Assembly: GCF_035594765.1 (NCBI RefSeq)
Contig: NW_026943868.1
Coordinates: 1 to 64,000, forward strand
Reading direction: 5' to 3'
From: Anolis carolinensis
Taxonomy: Eukaryota
Length of the DNA: 64,000 nt
This document shows, one piece after another, positions 30,605 to 31,930 of the stretch. The notes beneath the pieces were generated by a model. The model saw only the letters and a program-made list of their open reading frames with translations. It did not search any database and had not been told where the DNA came from. The position numbers and the translations under genes are program-made. Every line of letters starts with the position of its first letter. Within the stretch, counting starts at the first letter, position 1.

Positions 30605-31930
30605 AGGCCTCGCGAGACTTCGCCTCATCTTGAGGCCTGTACCGCTAAACTCTCGCGAGAGCTTCGAACCTCCTCGCATACGTTCAAGTTCCTTGAATCA
30701 ACTCATGCTTCTAAACTCTCGCGAGGCTTCGGGCAAATTGTCATTCCCCAACTTGTATACTAGCTAAACTCACGCGAGATTTGGGACAACCTGTTATTCC
30801 CCTCAGCAGGGGGTTGTAATAACCCTACTCGTTCAAAACATCGCGAGACTTCGTCAAATCTGAAGCCTATACCGGCTAAAATCTCGCGGGACTTCGAGGT
30901 TCTAATAACCCTATTCGTTCAAAACATCGCGAGACTTCGCCTCTTCTGAAGCCTATACAGGCTACAATCTCGCGGGAGTTCGAGGTTCTAATAACCCTAT
31001 TCGTTCAAAACATCGCGAGACTTCGTCAATTCTGAAGCCTATACAGGCTACAATCTCGCGGGAGTTCGAGGTTCTAATAACCCTATTCGTTCAAAACATC
31101 GCGAGACTTCGCCTCTTCTGAAGCCTATACAGGCTACAATCTCGCGGGAGTTCGAGGTTCTAATAACCCTATTCGTTCAAAACATCGCGAGACTTCGTCA
31201 ATTCTGAAGCCTATACAGGCTACAATCTCGCGGGAGTTCGAGGTTCTAATAACCCTATTCGTTCAAAACATCGCGAGACTTCGCCTCTTCTGAAGCCTAT
31301 ACAGGCTACAATCTCGCGGGAGTTCGAGGTTCTAATAACCCTATTCGTTCAAAACATCGCGAGACTTCGTCAATTCTGAAGCCTATACAGGCTACAATCT
31401 CGCGGGAGTTCGAGGTTCTAATAACCCTATTCGTTCAAAACATCGCGAGACTTCGCCTCTTCTGAAGCCTATACAGGCTACAATCTCGCGGGAGTTCGAG
31501 GTTCTAATAACCCTACTCGTTCAAAACATCGCGAGACTTCGTCTCTTCTGAAGCCTATACCGGCTACAATCTCGCGGGAGTTCGAACATCGCTCAACCCA
31601 TCGCAGGACATCGCCTCCTCTCAAGTCTCTAAACTCTCGCGAGACGTGGGGCTTCATTCCCCAACCTGTATACTCCCTAAACTCTCGCGAGATTTGGAAC
31701 AACCTGTTATTCCCCTCAGCTGGGGGTTCTGATGGACCGTACACATTCAAAACATCGCGAGACGTTGTCAATTCTGAAGCCTATACCGTCTAAAATCTCG
31801 CGGGACTTTGGGTCTCTGTCCTTCTACACGGGCTGTGAGGGATACCGGCTAAGCCACGCCTACTAAATCAACATATCGCGATACTTCGGCTCTTCAAGCC
31901 TCTACAGTTGCTAAAGTCTCGCGAGAACTG
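30605..31930. promoter_or_regulatory. RPS28/NDUFA7 bidirectional promoter expanded by an 86-bp tandem repeat (about 9 units) rich in TCTCGCGAGA-type motifs
   Basis: Unit gttctaataaccctattcgttcaaaacaTCGCGAGActtcg...acaaTCTCGCGGGAgttcgag. The period is 86 bp (31071 to 31501 = 5 x 86) and units alternate between two variants. Extra motifs occur in both flanks. Confidence 0.85.

What the first reader, a model, noticed from the sequence alone, without database searches (positions are those of the whole stretch)
30605..31930. About 28 TCTCGCGAGA-type (BANP-class) motifs stacked in the RPS28/NDUFA7 bidirectional promoter
Established: TCTCGCGAGA is a strong, methylation-sensitive CpG-island activator motif bound by BANP, usually present in one to a few copies at housekeeping promoters. 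The human RPS28-NDUFA7 spacer is short. Seen: here the spacer is about 1.4 kb, with about nine 86-bp units in an alternating 172-bp higher-order pattern, each with two motif variants about 43 bp apart, plus about 10 in duplicated flanks. CpGs are retained, which suggests the region is unmethylated. The 172-bp dimer is close to a nucleosome repeat length. Inference: a VNTR rheostat that co-tunes a ribosomal and a complex I subunit.
Basis: partly seen in the sequence, partly recalled or inferred. Interest (0 to 1): 0.7.

Follow-up and report, generated by a model that had tools for sequence, protein, structure and literature searches.

The report
Lizard promoter with 28 BANP-type sites
In a genome that is likely a lizard's, the 1.45-kb gap between two back-to-back housekeeping genes holds 28 duplicated copies of a known gene-activating DNA motif whose cores stayed intact while neighbouring letters changed; they likely keep the stretch open and active, but the idea that their number acts as an expression dial is untested.

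Summary
Observation confirmed: 28 CGCG-core (TCTCGCGAGA-type) sites lie between the head-to-head genes RPS28 and NDUFA7 (start codons 1,449 bp apart); 18 are in a 9 x 86-bp array, 10 in older duplicated flanks, none elsewhere in the window. Only 4 are perfect. Cores look selected: in an old block duplication motifs differ at 4 of 60 columns against 64 of 249 elsewhere, and 28 of 29 motif-like sites keep CGCG, against 22 of 70 in a control minisatellite. The genome encodes BANP. The 172-bp alternation is absent from the second haplotype, which has the same 9 units, so nucleosome phasing is not supported. Contig depth hints at about 2-4 units in some animals and about 9 in others. The region is 56% tandem repeat, and the neighbouring MLLT1 promoter module is amplified too. 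Best reading: a multi-copy CGCG/BANP promoter, unusually large, expanded by local repeat turnover; binding is likely, a co-tuning rheostat is untested. The scan noted a five-site case in another genome and other amplified promoters in this one.

The parts
28189..28311 (-). RPS28 second coding exon (to stop codon)
   Evidence: translation; PF01200 E 2e-20
30432..30518 (-). RPS28 first coding exon (MDTSR...QCTQ, GT donor)
   Evidence: PF01200 E 3e-07
30538..30545 (-). Pyrimidine-tract (TCT/5'TOP-type) initiator of RPS28; predicted start near 30543
   Evidence: sequence; motif definition recalled; start site not measured
30568..30574 (-). TATA box, 31 bp before the predicted RPS28 start; E-box, GC box and ETS-like site beside it
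   Evidence: sequence; motif names recalled
30608..30779 (.). Left flank: 4 CGCG-type sites (30608, 30651, 30717, 30770); the first is 65 bp from the predicted RPS28 start
30610..30894 (+). Old duplicated block, copy 1 (80% identical to 31529-31808)
30812..31585 (.). Young minisatellite, 9 x 86 bp; each unit has two sites 43 bp apart (CATCGCGAGA, TCTCGCGGGA) whose perfect TCTCG halves lie on opposite strands; 18 sites
31529..31808 (+). Old duplicated block, copy 2
31599..31608 (.). The one decayed site (core CGCA)
   Evidence: flank-only matrix scan
31635..31926 (.). Right flank: 6 CGCG-type sites (31635, 31683, 31753, 31796, 31874, 31917); the last ends 41 bp before the NDUFA7 start codon
31968..32018 (+). 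NDUFA7 first coding exon (further exons 33912-33961, 34990-35139, 36732-36828)
   Evidence: translations; PF07347 E 5e-17 for exon 3

Best explanation
The spacer between RPS28 and NDUFA7 is a stack of 28 duplicated CGCG elements that likely binds the activator BANP and likely keeps the whole 1.4 kb unmethylated and poor in nucleosomes, with the outermost sites likely doing most of the work of starting each gene. Shown: it was built in layers (a ~43-bp monomer, a pair, a ~290-bp block duplication, then a young 86-bp minisatellite), and the motif cores plus their AA flanks were kept while the letters between them diverged. Inferred: selection keeps the sites bindable; the inner copies add little beyond saturation because they lie hundreds of bases from either start; the number of units drifts with the repeat turnover that affects this whole region and is not itself tuned.
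For: Old block duplication: 4 of 60 motif columns differ against 64 of 249 others (Fisher p 8e-4; window permutation p 0.007-0.008 under 4 scoring schemes); core CpGs kept 12 of 12, other CpGs 3 of 14, with only 5 of 11 losses being TG/CA. Flank-only matrix: 28 of the 29 best sites keep CGCG; control 22-bp minisatellite on C9 keeps 22 of 70, 34 being deamination-type. Between haplotypes 2 of 42 differences fall in motifs (8.1 expected), 0 in cores. 27 of 28 sites keep a perfect TCTCG half-site, 26 with AA just upstream, matching the AAATCTCG optimum of the BANP domain (PMC10206803). BANP BEN-domain exon on C11, E 4e-48 to PDB 7YUG. CGCG elements act 20-70 nt from start sites and in both directions (PMC6192621); BANP displaces nucleosomes from single motifs (PMC11420395). 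Three runs with only 18-27 million letters of contigs hold single-copy flank contigs of 635-666 bp at depth 8.6-16.3, where genome-wide runs at depth 4.6-9.3 give 1,185-1,235 million letters: a selective library of unrecorded type. Region: 56% tandem repeat, about a dozen other long minisatellites, and a 26-fold amplified GC-box module in MLLT1 intron 1.
Against: No binding, methylation, accessibility or start-site data were obtained; the library type of the small runs is not on record. 24 of 28 sites are imperfect, and the ATG-flank variant (10 sites here) was weaker in reporters; the TCTCGCGGGA variant is not named in the section read. Polymorphic flank sites avoid motifs only weakly (1 of 28, 4.1 expected, p 0.066). 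The duplication block was found by BLAST, which favours conserved seeds, and control arrays are of unknown age. RPS28 has its own TATA box and TCT initiator, so it may not depend on the array. Reporter output rose with 1-4 copies without saturation, so saturation is my inference. The recognition helix of this BANP (S313, R316) was not found in the 20 kb searched.
Confidence: 0.6

Rival explanations
1. VNTR rheostat: the number of 86-bp units sets BANP load and co-tunes RPS28 and NDUFA7, and that number is under selection.
For: Reporter output rises with 1, 2, 4 copies in both directions, and 7- and 17-fold with the 2nd and 3rd DENR element (PMC6192621). Collapsed-unit depth over flank depth: about 9 (X1), 8-10 (X12), 8.5 (X7), 9.5-11 (X9), 4.6 (X19), 2.5-3.9 (X10), about 2 (X11), 7 of 8 runs laid; X5 showed no array contig.
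Against: Both assembled haplotypes have 9 units and 1,449 bp. Depth of contigs is no true copy number. No expression data. Ten flank sites remain whatever the unit number. Inner units lie 270-1,100 bp from either gene's start, outside the 20-70 nt range of the element. Ribosomal-protein levels are buffered after transcription (established knowledge, recalled). Neighbouring intronic arrays vary in number between the haplotypes too.
Confidence: 0.15
2. Pure passenger: only the one or two sites next to each start matter; the rest is a by-product of local repeat turnover and survives because it is young and lies in an unmethylated island.
For: 56% of the window is tandem repeat; introns, transposon pieces and another promoter module are amplified alike; earlier scan notes describe other amplified promoters in this genome (unchecked).
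Against: Old inner sites far from either start (30717, 30770, 31635, 31683, 31753, 31796) keep their cores while 26% of surrounding columns, including 11 of 14 other CpGs, changed; lack of methylation would protect all CpGs alike.
Confidence: 0.17
3. Another reader: the sites serve ZBTB33/Kaiso (when methylated), a DYRK1A-recruiting complex or ZBED1 and not mainly BANP, or act as a sink for the factor.
For: The same palindrome is the ZBTB33 matrix and the DYRK1A platform at ribosomal-protein promoters (PMC10813206).
Against: Kaiso binds the element only when methylated (PMC6192621), and the substitution pattern shows no CpG hypermutation; conserved AA flanks fit the BANP optimum. These factors may co-occur with BANP and are not exclusive.
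Confidence: 0.05
4. Nucleosome-phasing device: the 172-bp dimer positions nucleosomes across the spacer.
For: Perfect alternation of two unit types over 8 units on this contig.
Against: The two types differ at 3 of 86 bases; the second haplotype has no alternation (mean distance 4.29 at lag 2 against 3.75 at lag 1); a site every 43 bp for a nucleosome-displacing factor predicts depletion, not phasing.
Confidence: 0.03

Closest known systems
Multi-copy CGCG-element (BANP-motif) CpG-island promoters, e.g. human DENR (PMC6192621; passages and sections 23-25 read)
   Same: Same 10-bp element and variants, several copies at a housekeeping promoter, ribosomal-protein gene, divergent transcription, outermost sites within about 70 bp of the predicted starts.
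   Different: 28 sites over 1.3 kb against 3 in DENR; mostly imperfect half-palindromes in alternating orientation at 43-bp spacing; carried by a minisatellite; only about 50% GC; RPS28 side has a TATA box.
Promoter VNTRs carrying factor sites (human TYMS TSER, XRCC5, insulin VNTR; recalled, the first two also named in earlier scan notes)
   Same: Head-to-tail units with an activator site in each, upstream of a gene, probably variable in number.
   Different: Lies between two divergent genes; unit holds two sites of a methylation-sensitive chromatin opener; length variation only hinted and no expression effect shown.
Head-to-head ribosomal-protein gene promoters (about 30% of human RP genes have a divergent start within 500 bp; PMC10813206 section 14 read)
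   Same: RPS28 head-to-head with NDUFA7 in the order KANK3-RPS28-NDUFA7-CD320 (human order recalled).
   Different: Starts are about 1.4 kb apart, so it is better seen as two core promoters sharing one long motif block. Whether human RPS28/NDUFA7 has the element could not be established.

Membership tests
CGCG element / BANP-motif promoter | TCTCGCGAGA or close variant with intact CGCG core | tested here: met
   28 sites, 4 perfect, 27 with a perfect TCTCG half
CGCG element / BANP-motif promoter | Element within about 20-70 nt of a transcription start | tested here: inconclusive
   65 bp from a predicted TCT start and 41 bp before the NDUFA7 ATG; starts not measured; inner sites are far outside this range
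CGCG element / BANP-motif promoter | Lies in an unmethylated CpG-rich island | tested here: inconclusive
   o/e 1.31, GC 49.7%; no CpG hypermutation; enrichment in small runs of unknown type; no methylation data
CGCG element / BANP-motif promoter | BANP encoded in the genome | tested here: met
   BEN exon on C11, E 4e-48 to human BANP structure, loop 1 conserved; helix 5 exon not located
CGCG element / BANP-motif promoter | BANP binds and is needed for activity | not testable with these tools
   needs ChIP/CUT&RUN and depletion
Promoter VNTR | Tandem array of near-identical units at a promoter | tested here: met
   9.0 x 86 bp, 95%
Promoter VNTR | Unit number varies among alleles | tested here: inconclusive
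   9 and 9 in two haplotypes; depth ratios about 2 to 11 in 7 runs
Promoter VNTR | Expression depends on unit number | not testable with these tools
   no genotype-expression data
Bidirectional promoter (starts under 1 kb apart; definition recalled) | Head-to-head genes | tested here: met
Bidirectional promoter (starts under 1 kb apart; definition recalled) | Starts less than 1 kb apart | tested here: not met
   1,449 bp between start codons; predicted starts about 1.4 kb apart; shorter alleles may meet it
Higher-order repeat of nucleosome length | Stable multimeric unit shared across alleles | tested here: not met
   alternation absent on C75

The most novel reading that the evidence does not exclude
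A natural lattice of up to 28 BANP sites at about four-helical-turn spacing (43 bp, kept through compensating indels in two old pairs) on which BANP tetramers bind cooperatively, with alleles from about 2 to about 10 units that set the output of a ribosomal and a complex I gene together: a heritable cis dial linking ribosome and respiratory-chain supply, and a ready-made allelic series for measuring dose-response of a CpG-island activator at an endogenous promoter.
Probability: 0.12. Interest if true: 0.72.

Novelty: new variant of a known kind. Interest (0 to 1): 0.42.

Why it matters
Known multi-copy CGCG promoters carry a few sites (3 in DENR) and dose-response was measured only to 4 copies (PMC6192621). 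A promoter with 28 selected sites, the densest cluster that the paired-site search listed in this assembly, and probable natural length alleles would let one test whether BANP-driven opening and transcription saturate, and whether a vertebrate with GC-moderate promoters builds a CpG-island-like domain by amplifying one activator site. If output is flat across alleles it is still a clean example of promoter growth by repeat turnover under motif-level selection. No paper on such an array was found (open-access library only).

Tried and rejected
Transposon origin: two DNA searches (172 bp of the array, 351 bp of the right flank) matched only C59 and C75; the search skips common words, so this is weak. 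Paralogous duplication of the locus: rejected, since 9 of 10 exons compared are 100% identical between C59 and C75 (KANK3 98.9%) and their alleles recombine among other animals; C75 is read as the second haplotype. Structured RNA: no Rfam match at 27000-40000; the unit folds better than shuffles (z -3.9), which follows from the palindromic motifs and was not taken as evidence. Bacterial promoter scan was irrelevant. Expression: no RNA holder listed; no evidence either way. Run X5 showed no array contig, and contigs of several runs stop short of the stretch ends: no inference drawn. The anchored conservation profile is circular for the core and was replaced. Strict 43-bp spacing: weakened, since one animal (X11) has a 1-bp deletion between the first two sites and flank spacings of 48-78 bp are not in phase. 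Genome-wide enrichment of paired sites: not shown (108 matches against 83 for the reversed control pattern). Human RPS28/NDUFA7 motif content: not found (supplements of PMC6192621 and PMC9363121 had no hit; the supplement of PMC10813206 could not be read, and may hold the answer). Grand et al. 2021 (Nature) is not held. No genomes of related eukaryotes were available, so the age of the cluster across species is open.

Full report
Observation. The sequence at 30600-31930 is as described. Allowing one mismatch to TCTCGCGAGA gives 17 matches in the window, all at 30608-31926, against 0.38 expected. Requiring an intact CGCG core and at most two mismatches gives 28, all in this stretch: 4 perfect, 13 with one mismatch, 11 with two. 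Eighteen lie in one array of 9.0 x 86 bp at 30812-31585, one every 43 bp, alternating CATCGCGAGA and TCTCGCGGGA; 4 lie to the left and 6 to the right. The flanking genes are RPS28 on the minus strand and NDUFA7 on the plus strand, with 1,449 bp between start codons. Neighbours are a KN-motif gene (KANK3-like) and an LDL-receptor-A gene (CD320-like) (gene names recalled). The genome has 1.85 Gb in 211 contigs; earlier scan notes call it the green anole (not tested here), which agrees with repeat families that I recall as anole.

Anatomy. On the RPS28 side the sequence reads GC box, TATATAA, E-box, then a pyrimidine tract 31 bp after the TATA box: an ordinary ribosomal-protein core promoter (motif names recalled), with the first CGCG site 65 bp upstream of the predicted start. 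On the NDUFA7 side the last site ends 41 bp before the ATG. The spacer was built in layers: the two halves of the 86-bp unit align as old 43-bp monomers, the first and last site pairs are diverged copies of the unit (83% and 80%), a 288-bp block occurs twice at 80%, and the array itself is young. Two DNA searches of the genome found the sequence only here and on contig C75.

The second copy. C75 carries the whole locus. Nine of ten exons compared are identical and the tenth is 98.9%, and the flank alleles of C59 and C75 occur mixed in single contigs of other animals, so C75 is read as the other haplotype. It has the same 28 sites, 9 units and 1,449 bp, with 42 substitutions. Its units do not alternate: mean distance 3.75 at lag 1 and 4.29 at lag 2, against 3.75 and 1.43 on C59. 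The 172-bp pattern is therefore the trace of one recent dimer amplification on one allele, three bases deep, and no stable nucleosome-length repeat.

Are the sites selected? Three tests say probably yes. In the old block duplication, motif columns differ at 4 of 60 and other columns at 64 of 249 (Fisher p 8e-4; permutation of six 10-column windows p 0.007-0.008 under four scoring schemes). Core CpGs were kept in 12 of 12 cases and other CpGs in 3 of 14, and only 5 of the 11 losses are TG or CA, which does not look like methylation-driven decay. A matrix built from flanks alone (12 diverged monomers, core left out) ranks 29 positions clearly above the rest; 28 have CGCG and one (31599) has CGCA. 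Controls in the same genome decay: a 22-bp minisatellite on C9 keeps 22 of 70 cores with 34 deamination-type, and nine loci of a dispersed element, picked by eye from 26 fetched, keep 20 of 45 cores counted as intact or deaminated (12 of 13 against 22 of 70, p 5e-5). Between haplotypes 2 of 42 differences hit motifs (8.1 expected), none a core, though many recur at the same unit column: 1 of 11 variable columns lies in the 20 motif columns of 86. Across 8 runs and both haplotypes, 1 of 28 polymorphic flank sites lies in a motif (4.1 expected, p 0.066; five rows were not shown). Caveats: the block was found by BLAST, and control ages are unknown.

Which reader? What is conserved is wider than the 10-mer: A at -4 (12 of 12), -3 (11) and -2 (10), and T at +12 (12 of 12). 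27 of 28 sites keep a perfect TCTCG half and 26 have AA just before it. The BANP BEN domain prefers AAATCTCG, and removing the AAA weakens binding 3-4-fold (PMC10206803, parts 1-2 of 5 read). Full-length BANP is a tetramer that rejects methylated CGCG (PMC11472053, passages) and displaces nucleosomes from a single motif (PMC11420395, passages). The genome has a BANP BEN exon on C11 (E 4e-48 to PDB 7YUG); the exon with the recognition helix was not found in 20 kb searched. In reporters the element drives both directions, scales with 1-4 copies, acts 20-70 nt from starts and is silenced by methylation; the ATG-flank variant, which is the reverse complement of the 10 CATCGCGAGA sites here, is weaker (PMC6192621, passages and sections 23-25). 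ZBTB33 and DYRK1A occupy the same motif (PMC10813206, passages and section 14).

Is it active, and does it vary? Twenty runs from nine studies hold half or more of the sampled words. Three of the eight runs laid have only 18-27 million letters of contigs yet hold single-copy flank contigs of 635-666 bp at depth 8.6-16.3, whereas genome-wide runs at depth 4.6-9.3 assemble 1,185-1,235 million letters. These look like selective libraries in which this promoter is enriched; their type is not on record, so this is a hint of open or active chromatin and no more. Depth of collapsed unit contigs over flank depth is about 9 (X1), 8-10 (X12), 8.5 (X7), 9.5-11 (X9), 4.6 (X19), 2.5-3.9 (X10) and about 2 (X11); X5 showed no unit contig. 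The tool warns that depth is no copy number, overlapping short contigs are counted twice and some are dropped; still, X10 shows one 116-bp cycle at 22.8 against flanks of 5.9-9.3, which suggests a short allele. Variable number is thus likely but unproven.

Context. Tandem repeats cover 56% of the window and about a dozen other long minisatellites lie within it; four of them differ in copy number between the haplotypes and three do not. Intron 1 of the MLLT1-like gene, 14 kb away, holds 26 copies of a GC-box/TTCAAA module next to its CpG island. Earlier scan notes report other amplified promoters in this genome and a five-site BANP repeat in another genome (unchecked). Amplification here needs no special cause. 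What is special is the cargo: of 108 genome-wide matches to two sites 30-45 bp apart, 21 are on C59 and at least 14 on C75 (100 listed); the next cluster has 8.

Mechanism. Shown: layered duplication, motif-level conservation, BANP gene present, no stable 172-bp unit. Inferred: BANP binds many of the sites, keeps 1.4 kb unmethylated and nucleosome-poor, and the outer sites help start each gene; inner copies add little; unit number drifts (0.6). Rivals: pure passenger (0.17), copy-number rheostat (0.15), another reader (0.05), nucleosome phasing (0.03). One detail keeps a bolder reading alive: in two old pairs the 43-bp spacing survived through compensating indels (+1/-1 and -2/+2), about four helical turns, as a bridging tetramer might need; against it, X11 has 42 bp in the first pair, other spacings are out of phase, and the reported stoichiometry is one DNA per tetramer.

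Comparison and verdict. It works like a multi-copy CGCG-element promoter such as human DENR (3 sites) crossed with a promoter minisatellite; sequence criteria for the first are met, binding is untested; length variation for the second is only hinted; the under-1-kb definition of a bidirectional promoter is not met on these alleles. No report of such an array was found (open-access library only; two searches were listings for context; Grand et al. 2021 not held, recalled only as cited by others; supplements of PMC10813206 unreadable and may show whether human RPS28 has the motif). New variant of a known kind; interest 0.42.

Noticed in passing
window 13146-16240: About 3.1 kb in intron 1 of the MLLT1-like gene (minus strand; exon 2 starts near 13028, first coding exon apparently near 16465-16476) is an array of about 26 modules, each with GC boxes, a TTCAAA word (reverse complement of a CHR-like element, recalled), and often CCAAT and TGTAAACA; 12.3 versus 13.3 copies of the 96-bp part in the two haplotypes. 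A second amplified promoter-type module, next to a CpG island.
   Followed up: partly
window 30432-30518: RPS28 codons 1-29 are in one exon; as I recall, the human gene has an intron after codon 13. Possible intron loss or gain, not checked.
   Followed up: no
G000:C75 versus G000:C59: Two unplaced contigs carry the same MLLT1-KANK3-RPS28-NDUFA7-CD320-K+ channel region: an uncollapsed haplotype pair, with 2.4% divergence in the promoter flanks but identical exons; KANK3 exon differs at 8 of 713 bases.
   Followed up: yes
L035 (G000:C9:32749900-32751600): A 22-24-bp minisatellite of about 70 units with TCGCGAGA-type cores, graded from intact at one end to deaminated at the other; whether it lies at a promoter was not checked.
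   Followed up: partly
L017, L019-L021, L026, L031, L032, L036, L040: A dispersed element family carries short inverted runs of 10-bp units containing AAATCTCGCGAGA-type sites, decaying by CpG loss: a possible mobile source of BANP sites in this genome.
   Followed up: partly
window 39816-39927: Cluster of four NRF1-type GCGCATGCGC sites (motif recalled) at the probable CD320 promoter.
   Followed up: no
window 21938-26870: The KANK3-like gene looks short and fast-evolving: KN motif followed by an acidic, low-similarity stretch, and minisatellites in most introns.
   Followed up: no
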